This document shows positions 12,357-62,135 of a stretch of 64,000 nucleotides of DNA, piece after piece; the stretch's first letter is position 1, and every line of letters begins with the position of its first letter. The notes beneath the pieces are model-generated. The model saw only the letters and a program-made list of their open reading frames with translations. It searched no databases and had not been told where the DNA came from. Origin of the DNA: Archangium sp. (GTDB lineage: Bacteria; Myxococcota; Myxococcia; Myxococcales; Myxococcaceae); the NCBI GenBank assembly GCA_047600485.1, contig JASGKS010000001.1, positions 6,784,259 to 6,848,258 on the forward strand, written 5' to 3'. The translations under genes were made by a program, and so were the position numbers.

Positions 12357-12363
12357 ACAAACC

Positions 12364-12402
12364 CCCCTCTCCCGCGAGGGAGAGGGTCGGGGTGAGGGTG
12401 AA
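12364..12402. repeat. GC-rich palindromic REP-like element (copy A)
   Basis: ccctctcccgcgagggagagggtcggggtgagggtg. It is the inverse of copy B about 90 bp away, so the pair can form a long stem. Confidence 0.7.
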
Positions 12403-12493
12403 ACGCGAAGCACGGCGGCCGTGCTGATCCTCGACACGAGTGATCACCGAGCCTCGAGCGTGCGTGCCCTCTCAGGCGCAGCGTCGTGCGGCT

Positions 12494-12533
12494 TTCACCC
12501 TCACCCTGACCCTCTCCCTCGCGGGAGAGGGGA
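12494..12533. repeat. GC-rich palindromic REP-like element (copy B)
   Basis: tcaccctcaccctgaccctctccctcgcgggagaggg. It is the reverse complement of copy A. Confidence 0.7.
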
Positions 12534-12536
12534 GCT

Positions 12537-14018
12537 TTATTCCTCGGGCTCTTTCGGCGGCGGAGTACCGCGCTCTTCATCGAGCGCCTTCAACGCCGCG
12601 TCAGCCTTCTCGAGCTCAGTCGCCGCTTTCTCCATCTCACGCTCCAGCGGAGCACGCTTCGCCTCGAGCGCCGACGTGTCACCGCGCGCCGACTCAATCT
12701 TCGCCTGCAGCTTCTCGAGCTTCGCGTTGATGGAGTCGTAGCGCGCCTGCGCCTTCGCCACGCGCTTCTGCAACCCGACCCGCTCACCATCGACGAGCTT
12801 CACGTCGACCGTGGTGGGCTTCGGCACGTTCTTGAGCGTCTTCGTCAACGTGGTGTGGTTCTCGGCGCTGAAGCTCAGCTCATGCTTCTTCTTCGGCTCG
12901 AGCCACACGTCGAGCGGCGTGCTCCCGACCGCGAGCCCATCGACGGTGACCGCCGCCACCGGAGTCGACTTGAGCGTCACCTTCGTGCCCTTCACCAACG
13001 TGAACTGCAGTTCGTTCTCTCCGGCCGAAAGCAGCTTCCGCTCGCTCGCCGCCTGATACCCGTCAAGCGTGACCACCACGTCGGTGACGTCAGCGTCGAG
13101 CAGACTCGTGGTGCCCGGCGTCTTCGCGAGCACTTCCTTCCCACCGACCAACACACGCGCGCCCTCGGGCTCCGAGGTGACCTTCACCGTCGCGCCGCGC
13201 TTCAGCGTGAAGCTCAACGTGAAGTGCTCGTTCGCGTTCGGCGTGCGCTCGACGGAATCAGGGAAGAAGCCCGCCTGCTCGACGCGAATGACGTTTCGCT
13301 CGGTGGCGTTGAGCGGCGTGTCGAGCGGGCTCGTGCCTCGCTTCTCGCCGTTGACGAACACCGTCGCGCCCGGCGGCTCGGTGGTGATGTTCGAGAGCGG
13401 GTGGAGCCCGAGCGGATCATCCTTCCCCGTGGGCACCGACTTCACCGGCGCTTCCTTCGGCGGCGGCTTGCCGGCCTGACACGCGGTGCGCGTGGTCTCG
13501 AGCCACTTCGCGAGCGAGCGCTGCTGCAGGTCGAACGCGAGTTCCTTGCGATCTGAATCGTCGAGCGTCTTCGCGTTCTGCACGATGCACGCGCACACCT
13601 CTTTATCCGTGCCTGCCGCGGTGCAGCGGCGCATGAAGCCCTCTTCGAAGAGCACGCGGCGGTCTTCAGCGCTCAACGGAGCGGTCATCGAGCGCGTGAT
13701 GGCTCCCGCGAACAGCACCACTCCGATTCCCGCGACGAACGCGAGGACCTGCAGAATCGCCAGAATCAGCGCCACCCAGCGCGAGCCGGTGCCGAGGTCT
13801 TCGTCCTTCCAGATGAACCAGCCGAAGAGCCCGGGAAAAATCGCGGCGCCGAACGCGCGCAACCAGTCCGCTCCGCCCGCGCGGAAAATCCACACCAGGA
13901 TGCCGACCCAGATGAGCGAGCAGCAGCTGCTCCCGCCGGTGCGTTGGCGGTCAGCCGCGAGCGCGACGGTGCTGCCGAGCACCACGAAAGCGATGAACCA
14001 CCACGGAGTGCGCTTCAT
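12537..14018 (-). CDS. PEGA-domain membrane protein with a C-terminal coiled coil
   Basis: N-terminal TM helices. Repeated PEGA-like motifs (TTEPPGATVFVNGEKRGTSPL and VTSEPEGARVLVGGKEV). Start taken as MKRTPWW, which overlaps the stop of the upstream lipoprotein gene (ATGA). Confidence 0.65.
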   Translation of the reverse strand: MKRTPWWFIAFVVLGSTVALAADRQRTGGSSCCSLIWVGILVWIFRAGGADWLRAFGAAIFPGLFGWFIWKDEDLGTGSRWVALILAILQVLAFVAGIGVVLFAGAITRSMTAPLSAEDRRVLFEEGFMRRCTAAGTDKEVCACIVQNAKTLDDSDRKELAFDLQQRSLAKWLETTRTACQAGKPPPKEAPVKSVPTGKDDPLGLHPLSNITTEPPGATVFVNGEKRGTSPLDTPLNATERNVIRVEQAGFFPDSVERTPNANEHFTLSFTLKRGATVKVTSEPEGARVLVGGKEVLAKTPGTTSLLDADVTDVVVTLDGYQAASERKLLSAGENELQFTLVKGTKVTLKSTPVAAVTVDGLAVGSTPLDVWLEPKKKHELSFSAENHTTLTKTLKNVPKPTTVDVKLVDGERVGLQKRVAKAQARYDSINAKLEKLQAKIESARGDTSALEAKRAPLEREMEKAATELEKADAALKALDEERGTPPPKEPEE

Positions 14019-14464
14019 CGTTGGCTCTGACAGCGCGTGACTATTGAGGAGAATTCGACAGGGAGTGGTCGGCCCTGCTGGTAGCGCTCGACCACGTCCC
14101 ACAGCGCGTCGCCTTCGAAGCCGTCGTACAGCCCTTCGATGACGCACACGCAGGCCTTCTTGCCTTCGCACTGCGCGACCGAGAGCGGCTTCAGACACGA
14201 CGCGCCGCGCCGGCGAATCAGCACCTGCATCTCTTCACCCGTGAAGAAGTTCGCGTCGGACGCGAGCGCACGCAGCTCGCCTTCGGTGAAGTCGCCCGTG
14301 ATGGCAGGAATGAGGCAACCGCAGTCGAGCTTGCTCTCGAGGCCGGTCTTGCCCTTCTTGCCTTCGTCGCAGCTGCGCTCGAGCGCGCGCACGATGGCCG
14401 GTCGTCCGGTGAGGGAATCGCAGCCCGACAGGATGATCAGAGTCAGCGCCGCCCAACGCTGCAT
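14015..14464 (-). CDS. Cys-rich lipoprotein, hypothetical
   Basis: Lipobox LIILSGCDS, about 10 Cys residues. Translationally coupled to the PEGA gene. Confidence 0.45.
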   Translation of the reverse strand: MQRWAALTLIILSGCDSLTGRPAIVRALERSCDEGKKGKTGLESKLDCGCLIPAITGDFTEGELRALASDANFFTGEEMQVLIRRRGASCLKPLSVAQCEGKKACVCVIEGLYDGFEGDALWDVVERYQQGRPLPVEFSSIVTRCQSQR

Positions 14465-57223: not shown

Positions 57224-57371
57224 CGCGCGAACCTAGCCGCGCGAGCCGCGCTCACCCACGGAATCGAGAGCGGCTGATCCGCCGAACGCCCGGTTTTTTC
57301 CGATGTGCGCTTCGAGCGCCACTACGCTGCCGCGCCGGAACTTCAACGCCGTCTCAGACGTCGAGGACCTC

Positions 57372-60260
57372 ATGCGCTTGCTCCTGATCAGCCTGTTGCT
57401 GTCACTCCCCGCAGTGGCCGCTGAAGATGCGCCGGTCTCGCTCACCGCGAGCGACGGCACGGGCCTGAAGCTCACCAAATTCCAGGCGCGCGGCGTGGTG
57501 TCCGACCCGCTGGCCTTCACCGAGCTCACCCTCACCTTCCAGAACCCGCTCGACCGCGTGCTCGAAGGTCAGTTCAAGGTGACGCTGCCTCCGGGCGCGA
57601 CGGTGAGCCGCTTCGCGATGAAGCTCGATGGCCGCTGGCAGGAAGGCGAAGTCGTCGAGCGTCAGGCCGCGCGTCGCGCGTACGAAGATTTCCTCCACCG
57701 CCGGCAGGACCCCGCGCTGCTCGAGCAGAGCGGCGGCAACGAGTTCACCGCGAAGGTGTTCCCCATTCCCGCGAAGGGCGTGAAGGAAGTCGTCATCTCG
57801 TACTCGCACGACCTGGTGCAGAAGAACTCGACGTATGTGTTGCCTTTGAAGGGCATGCCGGAAATCGGCGAGCTCGACGTGAAGGTGACGGGCGTCGATG
57901 GCGACGGCGTGCTGAGCAAGAAGTCGTTCGTTCCCAACGCTGACTTCGTCGGAGTGCCGAAGCGCAATCAGCTCGGCGTTCGTTCCGGTGACCTCGTCGC
58001 GGCGCGCGTGATTCCCGTCGACGCCACCGATGCCGATGCGCTCACCAACTTCACGCTGCTCGTCGATTCGTCGGGCTCGCGCGCGCTGGGGTGGAAGGAG
58101 CAGACGCAGCTGGTGCAGAAGCTGCTCGCCGCGGTGCCGACCGCGACGGTGAACGTGCTGGCGTTCGACCAGGAAGTCGCTGCGATTTATTCGGGCGTCG
58201 CGTCGGGCTTCGGTGACGCGCAGGCGAAGACGCTGCGTGACCGCAAGGCGCTCGGCGCGTCGAACATCGAGCTGGCGTTGAAGGCGGTGGCTGCCAAGCC
58301 GACTCCGCGCGTGGTGGTGCTGGCCGACGGCGTGTTCACCGCCGGAGTCATCGAAGGTCCGAACCTCACGGCGCAGGTGCTGAAGCTGAAAGCAGCCGGC
58401 GTGAAGCGGCTCGACGCCATCGCGGTCGGTGGTCTGCGTGACGAAGGTGCGCTCGCGCGAATCGCGCAGGGCTCGCTCGAGCGCGACGGCGCGGTGCTCG
58501 ATGGCTCCTTGCCGGCGACTGAGCTCGCGCGTCGTCTCGGGCTGTCGACGAAATCGAAGCTCGAGGTGAAGCTCGATGGAGCGACCGCAGTGTGGCCTCG
58601 CATCGTGAGCGGCATTCAGGCCGGCGACGCGGTGCTGGTGTACGCGCAGCTGCCGGCGAACGCTCCGTTCAAGGGCACCATCGGGGGCAAGGCGATGGCG
58701 GTCGGTGACGGTCAGCTCGCTTCCATCGAGCGGCCGTTGCTCGAGCGCGCGTGGGCGAAGGCGCGCATCGATTCGCTGCAGGACCAGCTGGCGAACGCCG
58801 ACGGTGCTCCGCAGCGCGAGGCGTTGAAGAAGGAAATCGTTCAGGTCTCGACGCAGAACCGCGTGCTGTCGTCGCTCACCGCGTTGCTCGTGCTCGAGAC
58901 CGAGAATGACTACGCGCGCTTCAACATCGATCGCAAAGCGCTGACCGACATCCTCGTGGTGGAGAACGGAGTGGTGAAGCGCAGCAAGCGCACGGCCGAC
59001 ACCATCGTCGTCGCGCGCGTCGAGAAGCTGCCTCCGCCGAAGAAGCCCGAGCCCGTCGCGAAGGAAGCGAAGGCCGAGGCGAAGAAGATGAAGCGTGACG
59101 AGAGCGACGACTTCAAGTCGTCCGACGGCAAAGAAGAAGAAGCCGAGAAGAACATGCCCGACGCGAAGCCGGCGCCGATGGAAGTCGCGGCCAACACCAC
59201 GCCGACCGTCGAGCGTCCGCCGCCTTCGCCGGCTCCTGCTCCTGCGCCGCCGCCTCCTCCTCCGCCCGCGACGCAGGCGCCTGAAGCCTCGCGACGCTCG
59301 ATGGACTCCGCGGGCCCGAGCGGTGGTCAGGCGATGCAGAAGGGCAGCGACCCGTACACCGGCAAGTTCAAGGAAGTGATGGTCGCGCTCGAGACCGACA
59401 AGAAGAAGGGCGTGGCGCTCGCGACCGGTTGGCACGAAGAGCAGCCCGGCGACATTCTCGCGCTCGTCGCGATGGGCACCGCGCTCGAGGCGGCCGGTGA
59501 CCTCGCCACCGCCGCGCGCGCGTACGGCAGCATCATCGACTTGTTCCCCGCGCGTGCGGACCTGCGTCGCTTCGCGGGCGTTCGTCTCGAGACCATCGCG
59601 GCGGCGCTCGAGCTCGCCATCGATTCGTTCGCGAAGGCGGCGGAGCAGCGAGCCGACCACCCCGCGTCGCACCGCCTGCTCGCGTTCGCGTTGCTGCGCG
59701 CGGGAAAGCCGGAGAAGGCGTTCGAAGCCATCAGCAAGGGCATCGCGCAGCGTTACCCGGAGGGCCGCTTCTCGGGCGTGGACCGCATTCTGCGCGAGGA
59801 CGCGGGCCTCATCGCCGCCGCGTGGATCAAGGCCGAGCCGTCACGCAAAGGTGAAATCGAAGGGAAGCTGAAGGCGGCCGGCGGTTGGGCCGAGAGCGAG
59901 CCGTCGCTGCGCTTCGTGTTGAACTGGGAGACCGACGCGAACGACGTCGACTTCCACATCACCGACGCCAGGGGCGGGCACGCGTACTACTCGCAGAAGG
60001 TGCTCGCGAGCGGTGGCGAGCTCTACGCCGACGTGACGACCGGCTACGGCCCGGAGTGCTTCACCATTCGGCTCCCGAAGGGCCGTCGCGCGGCGCCGTA
60101 CACGCTGCAGGCGCACTACTACTCCATCGGTCCGATGGGCGCGGGCATGGGCAAGCTGGAGATCATCGAGCACGACGGCAAGGGCGGGCTCACGTTCGAG
60201 CAGCGTCCGTACGTGGTGATGGTGAACCAGGCGTACGTCGATCTCGGCGTCGTGAAATGA
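57372..60260 (+). CDS. secreted VIT-domain + von Willebrand factor A-domain protein with a TPR-like region and a C-terminal DUF2135-like domain
   Basis: Signal peptide MRLLLISLLLSLPAVAAE. VIT-like N-terminus, vWA MIDAS motif (LLVDSSGS), a Pro-rich linker, and a C-terminal beta domain. Confidence 0.7.
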   Translation: MRLLLISLLLSLPAVAAEDAPVSLTASDGTGLKLTKFQARGVVSDPLAFTELTLTFQNPLDRVLEGQFKVTLPPGATVSRFAMKLDGRWQEGEVVERQAARRAYEDFLHRRQDPALLEQSGGNEFTAKVFPIPAKGVKEVVISYSHDLVQKNSTYVLPLKGMPEIGELDVKVTGVDGDGVLSKKSFVPNADFVGVPKRNQLGVRSGDLVAARVIPVDATDADALTNFTLLVDSSGSRALGWKEQTQLVQKLLAAVPTATVNVLAFDQEVAAIYSGVASGFGDAQAKTLRDRKALGASNIELALKAVAAKPTPRVVVLADGVFTAGVIEGPNLTAQVLKLKAAGVKRLDAIAVGGLRDEGALARIAQGSLERDGAVLDGSLPATELARRLGLSTKSKLEVKLDGATAVWPRIVSGIQAGDAVLVYAQLPANAPFKGTIGGKAMAVGDGQLASIERPLLERAWAKARIDSLQDQLANADGAPQREALKKEIVQVSTQNRVLSSLTALLVLETENDYARFNIDRKALTDILVVENGVVKRSKRTADTIVVARVEKLPPPKKPEPVAKEAKAEAKKMKRDESDDFKSSDGKEEEAEKNMPDAKPAPMEVAANTTPTVERPPPSPAPAPAPPPPPPPATQAPEASRRSMDSAGPSGGQAMQKGSDPYTGKFKEVMVALETDKKKGVALATGWHEEQPGDILALVAMGTALEAAGDLATAARAYGSIIDLFPARADLRRFAGVRLETIAAALELAIDSFAKAAEQRADHPASHRLLAFALLRAGKPEKAFEAISKGIAQRYPEGRFSGVDRILREDAGLIAAAWIKAEPSRKGEIEGKLKAAGGWAESEPSLRFVLNWETDANDVDFHITDARGGHAYYSQKVLASGGELYADVTTGYGPECFTIRLPKGRRAAPYTLQAHYYSIGPMGAGMGKLEIIEHDGKGGLTFEQRPYVVMVNQAYVDLGVVK

Positions 60261-61123
60261 ACGTCGCCATCGCGGTGCTCTCGCTCGCGCTCGCGGGCGA
60301 GCCGCTGGTGGTGAAGGGCCGCCAGGGGAACATCACGTTCCCGCTCGGGGAGGTGTCGTTCGCCGACGAGGTCGTCGCGCAGGACTTCGGCAAGAAGGGC
60401 CTCAGCGAGAAGTACCAGCGGCCGACCTCGGAGCTGCTGGGCAAACCAGACAAGAAATCATTCACGCTCGGGTGCGGTGGAAGCATCACCGTGCGCTTCA
60501 CCGACAACGCGGTGGTCGATTTGCCGAACGCTCCCGACCTCTACATCTTCGAAGACGGCCCGAAGGTCGAAGCGACGGAGCTCGAGCTGTCGGTCGATGG
60601 CGTGAGCTGGGTGAAGGTCGGTCGCATCGAAGGTGGCACCGCGGAGATCGACCTCGCGGGCAAAGTGCCGAGCGAAGAAATCTACCAGTGGGCGCGACTC
60701 ACCGATTTGGAGTCAGCGTGCAACGCGCAGTGGCCCGGAGCGGACATCGATGCCATCGGCGCGATGGGCTCGGCGTACCGGCTGCAGCTGGGCACGGAGG
60801 TGCTGTTCGATTCGGGCAAGTCGGTGCTGCGCGACCTGTCGCGAAACGAGCTGCACGCGCTCGCGCAGAAGATCACCACGATGGGCAAGGTGCGCATTCG
60901 CGTCGATGGTCACACCGATTCGCAGGGCGCCGACGCGTGGAATCGGAAGTTGTCGCAGGCGCGCGCTGAAGCGGTCGCGGCGTATTTGAAGATCGAGCTC
61001 GAGGGCGTGCGCATCGACGCGGTGGGGCACGGCGAGTCGCGGCCGGTCGCTCCGAATGACAGCGAAGAAGGTCGTCAGCGCAATCGGCGCGTGGAGCTGC
61101 TCGTCGTGCCTCTGCCGCCTTGA
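60257..61123 (+). CDS. OmpA-family (OmpA_C-like peptidoglycan-binding) protein
   Basis: The start overlaps the upstream stop (ATGA). C-terminal OmpA-like signature FDSGKSVLRD...VDGHTDSQGADAWNRKLSQARAEAV. Confidence 0.75.
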   Translation: MNVAIAVLSLALAGEPLVVKGRQGNITFPLGEVSFADEVVAQDFGKKGLSEKYQRPTSELLGKPDKKSFTLGCGGSITVRFTDNAVVDLPNAPDLYIFEDGPKVEATELELSVDGVSWVKVGRIEGGTAEIDLAGKVPSEEIYQWARLTDLESACNAQWPGADIDAIGAMGSAYRLQLGTEVLFDSGKSVLRDLSRNELHALAQKITTMGKVRIRVDGHTDSQGADAWNRKLSQARAEAVAAYLKIELEGVRIDAVGHGESRPVAPNDSEEGRQRNRRVELLVVPLPP

Positions 61124-61168
61124 GCTCGACCCGATGACGTGACCTCGGGCGCACACACAGCGCCTGAA

Positions 61169-61420
61169 TGAGCGAGCTGGTGGCGTGTGACGCGCGCTGC
61201 CCATCGCACGCGAGCCCCTCGACCTCGAGCGACTGGCTCGCAAGCCGTGTGCTCCTCACGAGTTTGGTCGCAAGGGGGGTCGGGCGGTTTTAGGCTAGCC
61301 GGCTGGCCGTTTTCGGACCGACCCCGCGTGTTGCGAGCAAACGGTCTGCGACCAGTCGCCCAAGGTCGAGGGGCTCGCGTGCGATGAGCAGTGCGCGTCA
61401 CACCGCCACCAGCTCGCTCA
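61169..61420. repeat. large nested palindrome: ~68-bp imperfect inverted-repeat arms around a ~115-bp internally palindromic core
   Basis: Arm 1 (61169-61236) is the reverse complement of arm 2 (61352-61420) with few mismatches. The core contains gtcgcaaggggggtcgg / ccgaccccgcgtgttgcgag. It sits between convergent genes. Confidence 0.75.
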
Positions 61421-61448
61421 TTCCGGCCGCTGCGCAGTGCGCGACCTT

Positions 61449-62135
61449 TCAGCGCACCTTCTTGCGGCGCGCGCGCGATTCGTTGATGGACTTCTGCTTG
61501 AGCCGTGAGAAGCGCAGGCCTGCCGCGCCCATCACGGTCTCGATTTCTTCGGCGTCGAGATCCTTGAACGCCAGCTCTTCCTGAATCTCGCCGTCGTCGA
61601 CGCCTTCAGACTTGAGCTGCTTCGCGAGCGCGTACGGAGAATCGGGCCGTACGGGCGACACGTAGTCACCCTCGCCCTCGCTCTCCTCTTCTTCTTCGAT
61701 CCGCGCCGACTTCTTTCGCGCAACGCGCTTCTTCGGCGCCATCGCATCGACTCCGCCCCGCTCGAAGACTTCGGCCTCGAGCGACCAGCACACCCACAGC
61801 GCGAACGCGCCGTACGCCGTGCCGAGCGGGAAGTTCGCCAGCGCGAGCACCGCGAAGACCGTCTGCAGCCCGCGCCCGCGCCCCTTCTCGATGACGTACC
61901 CGAGGTACGCCGACGGAGCGGCGCACAGCATCACCACCGCGCCGATGAGCGCGAAGATGTGAAACGGCATGTGCTCGCCCATCATGATGCCGACGACGAT
62001 GAGCAACGCCACGTAGAGCGCCGCCATCAGCCAGTTCAGGGTCGAGAGGATTCCGAGCACGGCCGTGATGCTCGCACGCGGGAGAAACCACTGCGCGCGA
62101 AGGGTGGTGTCACTGAACCCGGACGGCCCCATAGA
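61449..62135 (-). CDS. hypothetical membrane protein
   Basis: Three to four TM helices after MGPSGFSD, with an acidic/basic C-terminal tail. Confidence 0.4.
   Translation of the reverse strand, partial: SMGPSGFSDTTLRAQWFLPRASITAVLGILSTLNWLMAALYVALLIVVGIMMGEHMPFHIFALIGAVVMLCAAPSAYLGYVIEKGRGRGLQTVFAVLALANFPLGTAYGAFALWVCWSLEAEVFERGGVDAMAPKKRVARKKSARIEEEEESEGEGDYVSPVRPDSPYALAKQLKSEGVDDGEIQEELAFKDLDAEEIETVMGAAGLRFSRLKQKSINESRARRKKVR

What the first reader, a model, noticed from the sequence alone, without database searches (positions are those of the whole stretch)
61169..61420. Approximately 250-bp nested palindrome between convergent OmpA-like and membrane-protein genes
Two ~68-bp arms (61169-61236 and 61352-61420) are near-perfect reverse complements, and the ~115-bp core between them is itself palindromic. 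This is far larger than a typical rho-independent terminator. It resembles a MITE or foldback element, a cruciform-forming site, or a structured ncRNA. Its position behind the VIT-vWA/OmpA operon could insulate convergent transcription.
Basis: seen in the sequence. Interest (0 to 1): 0.5.

Follow-up and report, generated by a model that had tools for sequence, protein, structure and literature searches.

The report
Solitary 294-bp palindrome between convergent genes
A real, very stable 294-base DNA palindrome fills the gap between two genes that face each other in an Archangium (myxobacterium) genome; the nearest sequenced relative lacks it and no other copy was found, so it looks like a recent non-coding insertion with no shown function.

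Summary
The palindrome is real. Arms 61162-61236 and 61352-61427 pair at 71 of 75 positions, with one 1-nt bulge. Looser pairing extends to 61149/61442 (294 bp). Fold z-scores are -16 to -19. The 115-nt core is only weakly self-complementary (z -2.9) and shares the same axis, so it is one long imperfect hairpin, not a nested palindrome.

It fills nearly all of the 325-bp spacer between the OmpA-family gene and a convergent membrane-protein gene. In the closest relative (Archangium sp. MAG, L001) the two stop codons abut (TGA-TCA), so the palindrome is absent there. The arms differ by 0.055-0.084 substitutions per site, against 0.43-0.60 at fourfold sites of the orthologous genes. The arms are therefore probably younger than the split.

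No Rfam match, tRNA, coding signal, U-tract terminator, transposase or reverse transcriptase was found. No second copy turned up in the window, GTDB species representatives, JGI metagenomes, IMG/VR, plasmids or phages. The source genome is not in those collections, so its copy number is untested.

Best reading (confidence 0.45): a recently inserted MITE-like or foldback non-coding element. It would passively place a long hairpin in both 3' UTRs. Membership of the MITE class is not shown, and insulation of transcription is untested. Interest is low to moderate.

The parts
61149..61442 (.). Whole imperfect palindrome (294 bp), from GCGCAC... to ...GTGCGC. It fills most of the 325-bp spacer between the two stop codons.
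   Evidence: self reverse-complement alignment. Folds (z -16 to -19).
61162..61236 (.). Left arm (75 nt), the well-paired part.
   Evidence: I1 and I2; 4 substitutions, all transitions, plus a 1-nt indel against the right arm.
61352..61427 (.). Right arm (76 nt), the reverse complement of the left arm with one extra G.
61237..61351 (.). Core (115 nt). It is weakly self-complementary and shares the axis of the arms. It includes an 8-bp stem GGGGTCGG (61276-61283) / CCGACCCC (61318-61325).
   Evidence: MFE -57.7 kcal/mol, z -2.9. (I4, 19 nt at 74%). for coordinates.
61293..61314 (+). Apex: GGCTAG-CCGG-CTGGCC mini-hairpin followed by GTTTTC. It contains GGCTAGCC, which holds one of only four CTAG in the window. 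It is a sub-threshold terminator-like motif on the + strand only.
   Evidence: Read. The terminator scan did not call it.
61141..61145 (.). GACCT, the left copy of a possible 5-bp flanking direct repeat. It is separated from the palindrome end by CGG.
   Evidence: Weak: by my rough estimate the chance probability is about 0.04-0.1.
61443..61447 (.). GACCT, the right copy of the possible flanking direct repeat. It abuts the palindrome end.
60257..61123 (+). OmpA-family gene (288 aa). Its stop codon TGA is at 61121-61123, 25 nt before the palindrome.
   Evidence: 100% identity to an 'OmpA family protein [Archangium sp.]' MAG protein.
61449..62132 (-). Convergent gene for a hydrophobic protein of unknown family (227 aa if it starts at the ATG at 62132). 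Its stop codon is at 61449-61451, 6 nt after the palindrome.
   Evidence: 56% aa identity to the L001 orthologue.
57303..60260 (+). VIT/vWA/TPR protein gene. Its stop overlaps the OmpA gene start, so the two probably form an operon that reads into the palindrome.

Best explanation
The feature is a non-coding, lineage-specific insertion with a foldback (MITE-like) layout. Two near-identical inverted arms of about 76-90 nt flank a 115-nt poorly palindromic core. It landed between the stop codons of two convergent chromosomal genes after this Archangium lineage split from its nearest sequenced relative.

Shown: it is real, it is absent from the orthologous site in the relative, it has no coding or known-RNA signature, and its arms are much less diverged than neutral sites between the two genomes.

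Inferred: the DNA came from elsewhere, by transposition in trans or another insertion route, and was not built from local sequence. Any effect is probably passive. Both convergent mRNAs that read into it would carry a hairpin with an almost perfect 75-bp stem in the 3' UTR. By analogy with Correia, ERIC and REP elements, such a hairpin could block 3' exonucleases or be cut by RNase III. It lacks the U-tract of a canonical intrinsic terminator.
For: (1) Empty site. In L001 (Archangium sp. GCA_016792935.1; OmpA gene 83% nt identity, membrane protein 56% aa identity) the two stop codons abut...CGCTGA|TCAGCC.... The window has 325 bp there.
(2) No local source. Neither arm resembles anything else in the 64-kb window or in the orthologous loci. 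A purely local inverted duplication therefore has no visible template.
(3) Age. The arms differ by 0.055-0.084 substitutions per site, against 0.43-0.60 at fourfold-degenerate sites of the flanking orthologues.
(4) Layout. The arms pair well and the core pairs poorly. That fits a TIR-plus-core element better than a decayed perfect palindrome.
(5) Not a gene. There is no Rfam hit and no tRNA. Translated frames have no protein or Pfam relatives.
(6) MITEs are described as small, TIR-bearing, transposase-less elements of up to about 400 bp that fold into long hairpins (PMC3184786). Co-transcribed MITE hairpins are reported to affect mRNA through RNase III or altered stability (PMC2229807).
Against: No second copy was found in the window. 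Exact-word scans of 185,579 species-representative genomes and of JGI metagenomes gave only chance hits of 19-32 nt with no palindrome around them. IMG/VR, plasmids and phages gave nothing.

The candidate target-site duplication (GACCT) is out of register by 3 nt. No transposase, integrase or reverse transcriptase is encoded anywhere in the window.

Only two lineages carry both flanking genes, so loss in L001 cannot be strictly excluded. Exact-word scans miss diverged copies. The source genome itself is not in the searched collections, since neither arm was recovered from it. The key MITE criterion, multiple copies in the same genome, is therefore untested and not refuted.
Confidence: 0.45

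Rival explanations
1. The palindrome was made on the spot. An inverted duplication arose from a template switch or hairpin-capped break repair during replication, using a stretch of about 150 bp of DNA. The centre was later remodelled, because long perfect palindromes are unstable. On this reading it is unique in the genome and was never mobile.
For: No other copy was found anywhere. The target-site duplication is not convincing. The arms are young. No transposase lies in the 64 kb.
Against: An inverted duplication needs a template, and the relative has zero intergenic bases at this site. Nothing in the window or the orthologous loci resembles either arm. The core pairs much worse than the arms. 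Neutral decay of an initially perfect palindrome would not produce that contrast.
Confidence: 0.25
2. Whatever its origin, the hairpin is kept by selection as a two-way 3'-end element. It would stop or pause RNA polymerase coming from either convergent gene, or set mRNA 3' ends and stability. This would relieve the transcriptional collision implied by abutting stop codons in the relative.
For: It sits exactly between the two stop codons and fills the spacer. The predicted RNA hairpin is extremely stable on both strands. All four arm mismatches are transitions, so each is a G-U pair on one strand. The apex carries a small hairpin followed by UUUU on the + strand. [quoted passage not shown]
Against: No U-tract follows the long hairpin on either strand, and the scan called no terminator-like site. 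The element is not conserved: the closest relative manages with no spacer at all, and more distant relatives have gaps of 3-13 bp. Four transitions out of four is not statistically unusual. There are no transcript data.
Confidence: 0.15
3. It is a gene for a structured non-coding RNA, or a retron-like msr/msd unit, transcribed on its own.
For: Only the very stable fold supports this.
Against: There is no Rfam match even at E<=1 and none at gathering score across the window. No sigma-70-like promoter was found. No homologue exists anywhere, so there is no conservation or covariation. No reverse transcriptase lies nearby. It is absent in the closest relative.
Confidence: 0.05
4. It is an assembly artefact: a foldback or chimeric long read built into the MAG.
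For: The source is a metagenome-assembled genome with a 9.4-Mb contig. No independent assembly of the same locus could be retrieved.
Against: Artefactual foldbacks are usually perfect, large and at contig ends. This one is imperfect: 7 substitutions and 3 gap columns across the full 88/91-nt arm alignment (61149-61236 vs 61352-61442), with a non-palindromic core. It is internal and sits precisely between two intact genes.
Confidence: 0.03

Closest known systems
Bacterial MITEs that fold into long hairpins (Correia/NEMIS of Neisseria, ERIC/IRU and YPAL of enterobacteria, RPE of Rickettsia, the 288-bp IMU)
   Same: It is small (294 bp) and non-coding, has terminal inverted repeats, and folds along its whole length into a long hairpin. 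It is intergenic, sits beside gene 3' ends, and is present or absent between relatives. The size is within the range quoted for MITEs (generally <200 bp, some about 400 bp; PMC3184786).
   Different: No second copy is known. No clean target-site duplication and no TA ends were seen. It is GC-rich (68%), whereas MITEs are usually A+T-rich (PMC2229807). The well-paired arms (about 76-90 nt) are much longer than typical TIRs. No partner IS was identified. No sequence similarity to any described element was detected.
REP / BIME elements
   Same: They are GC-rich extragenic palindromes found between convergent genes, and they can act as 3'-UTR hairpins that affect mRNA stability (PMC3184786).
   Different: By general knowledge REP units are roughly 20-40 nt and occur in hundreds of copies. 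This hairpin has a stem of about 75-90 bp and occurs once in 64 kb. Another palindrome in the window (12359-12537) looks far more REP-like.
Bidirectional intrinsic (Rho-independent) terminators between convergent genes
   Same: It has the same position, centred between two convergent stop codons, and a hairpin that is symmetric on both strands.
   Different: The stem is an order of magnitude longer than a terminator stem. No U-tract follows it on either strand, and the terminator scan called nothing.
Long DNA palindromes or cruciform-forming inverted repeats made by inverted duplication
   Same: The arms are near-perfect and the centre is asymmetric. Asymmetric centres are known to stabilise long palindromes in bacteria (general knowledge, not tested here).
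   Different: No template for the duplication can be found, and the ancestral site appears to have had no spacer.

Membership tests
MITE (defined in PMC3184786 and PMC2229807) | Small (generally <200 bp, up to about 400 bp) and lacking a transposase gene | tested here: met
   It is 294 bp. Translated frames have no protein or Pfam relatives.
MITE | Terminal inverted repeats straddling a core, with the whole element able to fold into a long hairpin | tested here: met
   Arms pair at 92-96%. Fold z-scores are -16 to -19.
MITE | Flanking target-site duplication (direct repeat) | tested here: inconclusive
   GACCT occurs at 61141-61145 and at 61443-61447. The left copy lies 3 nt away from the palindrome end. 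The empty site in L001 is too diverged to define the target.
MITE | Multiple copies in the same genome or in related genomes (a repeat family) | tested here: inconclusive
   No copy was found in the 64-kb window, in GTDB representatives with an exact 23-mer, in JGI metagenomes with an exact 19-mer, or in IMG/VR, plasmids and phages. The source genome is not in these collections, and exact words miss diverged copies.
MITE | Presence/absence polymorphism at orthologous sites (evidence of past mobility) | tested here: met
   It is absent in L001, where the stop codons abut. It is also absent in L002-L005.
MITE | A partner IS whose inverted repeats match the element's ends | not testable with these tools
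   No IS or transposase is in the window. No IS end library is available and the rest of the genome cannot be reached.
REP/BIME | Short (about 20-40 nt) GC-rich imperfect palindromic unit present in many copies | tested here: not met
   The paired arms are 75-90 nt, and there is one copy in 64 kb.
Intrinsic / bidirectional terminator | Short GC-rich stem-loop followed directly by a U-tract (and preceded by an A-tract if bidirectional) | tested here: not met
   The scan called no terminator-like site in 60800-61800. The flanks are ...CCTCGG and GACCTTTCA.... Only the apex mini-hairpin plus UUUU comes close, and only on the + strand.
Any Rfam RNA family | Covariance-model match | tested here: not met
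   There are 0 matches at E<=1 in 60800-61800 and 0 at gathering score in the whole window.
Retron (msr-msd plus reverse transcriptase) | Adjacent reverse-transcriptase gene | tested here: not met
   The neighbouring genes are VIT/vWA, OmpA, a membrane protein and two proteins of unknown family. No RVT domain was found in the window.

The most novel reading that the evidence does not exclude
The palindrome is the first recognised copy of an undescribed long-TIR foldback element family in Archangium-type myxobacteria. Alternatively, it is a newly born structure kept by selection because its roughly 75-bp duplex gives both convergent mRNAs a shared two-way 3'-end or RNase III processing signal, replacing the stop-to-stop gene junction seen in the relative.
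Probability: 0.12. Interest if true: 0.45.

Novelty: new member of a known kind. Interest (0 to 1): 0.25.

Why it matters
If it proves to be a repeat family, it would add a long-arm, GC-rich MITE-like element to myxobacterial genomes. I found no description of such elements in this group: two literature searches returned nothing relevant. It would also give a dated example of an insertion that turns a zero-spacer convergent gene junction into one carrying a large shared 3' hairpin. If it is unique, it is a curiosity of genome instability with little wider consequence. Either way no function is shown, and the element is not conserved.

Tried and rejected
- Rfam, on the local region at E<=1 and on the whole window at gathering score: nothing.
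- tRNA/tmRNA scan: nothing.
- Promoter and terminator scan: nothing.
- Second copies in the window, by pattern with 3 mismatches, blastn with word size 7, and nhmmer with a two-arm profile: only the element itself. The weak nhmmer hits at 37.9-38.1 kb (E 1-2) fall on an unrelated inverted repeat and were rejected as chance.
- Genome-contig scan with the 23-mer core: 2 hits (Solibacteraceae, Nitrospirae). Each matches only 23-25 nt with no palindrome, so they are chance.
- Metagenome-contig scan with the 19-mer terminal block: 23 hits, all single and 19-32 nt. Those inspected are coding, for example a C-terminal '...DRMSELVARV' in L014.
- IMG/VR (two patterns), plasmids and phages (blastn, distant mode): nothing.
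- Protein-level search for ORFs called across hidden copies, in three frames: nothing, or a translated CRISPR array and a low-complexity giant protein. This test is weak, because not even the source locus returned a self hit.
- Pfam on all frames of the element: nothing.
- Coding-remnant idea: the arms show period-3 GC (p about 0.02 by hand), but no homologue backs it, so it is left unexplained.
- Attempts to reach the source genome or the same-population contigs through exact proteins failed.
- Retron idea: rejected, because no reverse transcriptase is present.
- IS-end junction idea (tips at the centre): rejected, because pairing is best at the outside and worst at the centre.

Full report
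**Observation**

The sequence at 61149-61442 is a single long imperfect palindrome.
- The repeat finder reports arms 61185-61236/61352-61403 (52 nt, 92% complementary) and 61162-61185/61404-61427 (24 nt, 96%). The two pairs are contiguous except for one extra G in the right arm.
- With looser pairing the symmetry runs out to GCGCAC at 61149 and GTGCGC at 61442. That gives 81 identical columns of 91.
- As RNA the region folds into one hairpin: -227.8 kcal/mol on the + strand (z -16.7) and -235.5 kcal/mol on the - strand (z -18.9). As DNA the value is -143.5 kcal/mol (z -16.1). No shuffle reached these values.
The 115-nt middle (61237-61351) has weak self-complementarity on the same axis (19 nt at 74%; z -2.9 when folded alone). 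It is the degenerate centre of one hairpin.
- The apex is GGCTAG-CCGG-CTGGCC followed by GTTTTC (61293-61314).

**Context**

- The palindrome occupies almost the whole 325-bp spacer between two stop codons.
- Upstream on the + strand lie a VIT/vWA/TPR protein gene (57303-60260) and an overlapping OmpA-family gene (60257-61123). The convergent gene (61449-62132, -) encodes a hydrophobic protein with no Pfam family.
- The OmpA protein is 100% identical to a protein of an Archangium sp. MAG with a 9.4-Mb contig.
- A Pfam scan of about 45 ORFs across the 64 kb found ordinary chromosomal genes. No transposase, integrase or reverse transcriptase was found.
- There is no Rfam match, no tRNA, and no sigma-70-type promoter or U-tract terminator.

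**Comparison with relatives**

- In the closest relative available (L001, Archangium sp. GCA_016792935.1) the OmpA gene is 83% identical in DNA. The convergent membrane-protein gene is present (56% aa identity). The genes downstream are collinear.
- There the two stop codons touch...CGC TGA|TCA GCC.... About 315 bp present in the window are missing.
- A second lineage, metagenome contigs L002-L005, lacks both the palindrome and the membrane-protein gene.
- More distant OmpA orthologues have other downstream genes and gaps of 3-13 bp.
- Nothing in any of these loci or in the rest of the window resembles the arms.
- The arms differ from each other by 0.055-0.084 substitutions per site. Fourfold-degenerate sites of the flanking orthologues differ by 0.43-0.60. 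If the arms evolve neutrally, they became identical well after the two lineages split. That fits a gain in the window's lineage.

**Search for other copies**

| Where searched | Method | Result |
|---|---|---|
| 64-kb window | pattern with 3 mismatches, blastn word 7, nhmmer arm profile | only the element itself |
| 185,579 species-representative genomes | exact 23-mer from the arm core | two chance hits of 23-25 nt |
| JGI metagenomes | exact 19-mer from the outer arm | 23 single hits of 19-32 nt, coding where inspected |
| IMG/VR | two exact patterns | nothing |
| Plasmids, phages | blastn, distant mode | nothing |
| Protein databases | ORFs translated through the palindrome, three frames | nothing meaningful |
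| Pfam | all frames of the element | nothing |

There is an important limit. Neither arm of the source locus was recovered by the genome scan, and exact-protein look-ups for this window fail. The source genome is therefore not in the searchable collections. Copy number within that genome, which is the decisive MITE criterion, could not be tested.

**Interpretation**

- The best-supported account is a recent insertion of non-coding foldback DNA with a MITE-like layout: long inverted ends, a non-palindromic core and no coding capacity.
- The empty site, the young arms and the lack of any local template favour an insertion from elsewhere over a local inverted duplication.
- The lack of other copies, the out-of-register GACCT repeat (61141-61145 and 61443-61447) and the absence of any transposase keep this from being more than a plurality view. 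I put it at 0.45.
- A one-off replication or repair accident is the main rival (0.25).
- A selected role as a two-way 3'-end element is possible but unsupported (0.15). The hairpin has no U-tract, and the closest relative functions with no spacer at all.
- By analogy with Correia, ERIC and REP elements (PMC2229807; PMC3184786), the likeliest consequence is passive. Both convergent mRNAs would acquire a long duplex in the 3' UTR that could block exonucleases or attract RNase III. This step is inference only.
- A stand-alone ncRNA (0.05) and an assembly artefact (0.03) are unlikely.

**Comparison with known kinds**

It behaves most like a hairpin-forming bacterial MITE. Of the MITE criteria:
- Met: size, lack of a transposase, terminal inverted repeats, and presence/absence polymorphism.
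- Inconclusive: target-site duplication and multiplicity.
- Not testable: a partner IS.

It is not a REP unit, because the arms are too long. It is not an intrinsic terminator, because there is no U-tract. It matches no Rfam family, and it is not a retron, because no reverse transcriptase is present.

**Verdict**

The feature is real and statistically extreme, but it is solitary, unconserved and without evidence of function. I file it provisionally as a new member of a known kind (intergenic foldback or MITE-like insertion). Interest is 0.25.

Noticed in passing
window 12359-12537: This is a second long palindrome (arms 56 nt, 86% complementary, 67 nt apart) of unrelated sequence. Each arm is a CCCTCTCCC-GCGA-GGGAGAGGG hairpin plus TCGGGGTGAGGGTGAAA. 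It starts right at the stop of the minus-strand PEGA-domain gene 12537-14234. It looks REP/BIME-like.
   Followed up: partly
window 37241-38290: This is a non-coding tract of about 1 kb. It has a 61-bp unit x3.3 (37241-37438) and a 21-bp unit GGCTTCGCGAGCGTGCGTAGT x21 (37424-37869). Two direct copies of a unit of about 100 nt follow (37941-38043 and 38175-38272, sharing ...GCTCACGTTGGGGGTG...AATCTGTACATGCCCGGGCAG...GAGCCACGAGTTGGACCC). All of this lies upstream of a + strand ORF beginning near 38316. No Rfam family reaches gathering score. The paired units could be small RNA or regulatory units.
   Followed up: partly
window 61114-62132 vs L002-L005: Metagenome relatives (80-90% nt identity in the flanking genes) lack the whole 1020-bp stretch, which is the palindrome plus the membrane-protein gene. 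The OmpA gene there is followed after 67 bp by the homologue of window 62133 onward. The site downstream of this OmpA gene is therefore an indel hotspot.
   Followed up: partly
window 61293-61300, and the whole window: CTAG is strongly avoided in the window: 4 observed against 24.9 expected from a Markov model. One of the four lies in the 8-bp perfect palindrome GGCTAGCC, within 1-3 nt of the symmetry centre of the large palindrome.
   Followed up: no
window 61162-61236 and 61352-61427: The arms show a codon-like period-3 GC pattern (0.52/0.72/0.88, mirrored in the other arm), as if copied from coding DNA read outward from the centre. The p-value is about 0.02 by a hand chi-square. No protein relative was found in any frame tested.
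   Followed up: partly
window 30935-33187 (-) and 57303-60260 (+): One protein has a major-vault-protein shoulder domain (PF11978, 1.8e-31). A separate protein has VIT (vault inter-alpha-trypsin), vWA and TPR domains. The two lie about 25 kb apart.
   Followed up: no
L002 958-1010: In the relative that lacks the palindrome, the OmpA stop is followed by GAGCCCCTCGTTTT and then a GAGTTTCTT...AAGAAACTC hairpin. The 10-mer GAGCCCCTCG also occurs in both arms of the window palindrome. I judged this to be chance (not significant in the BLAST).
   Followed up: partly
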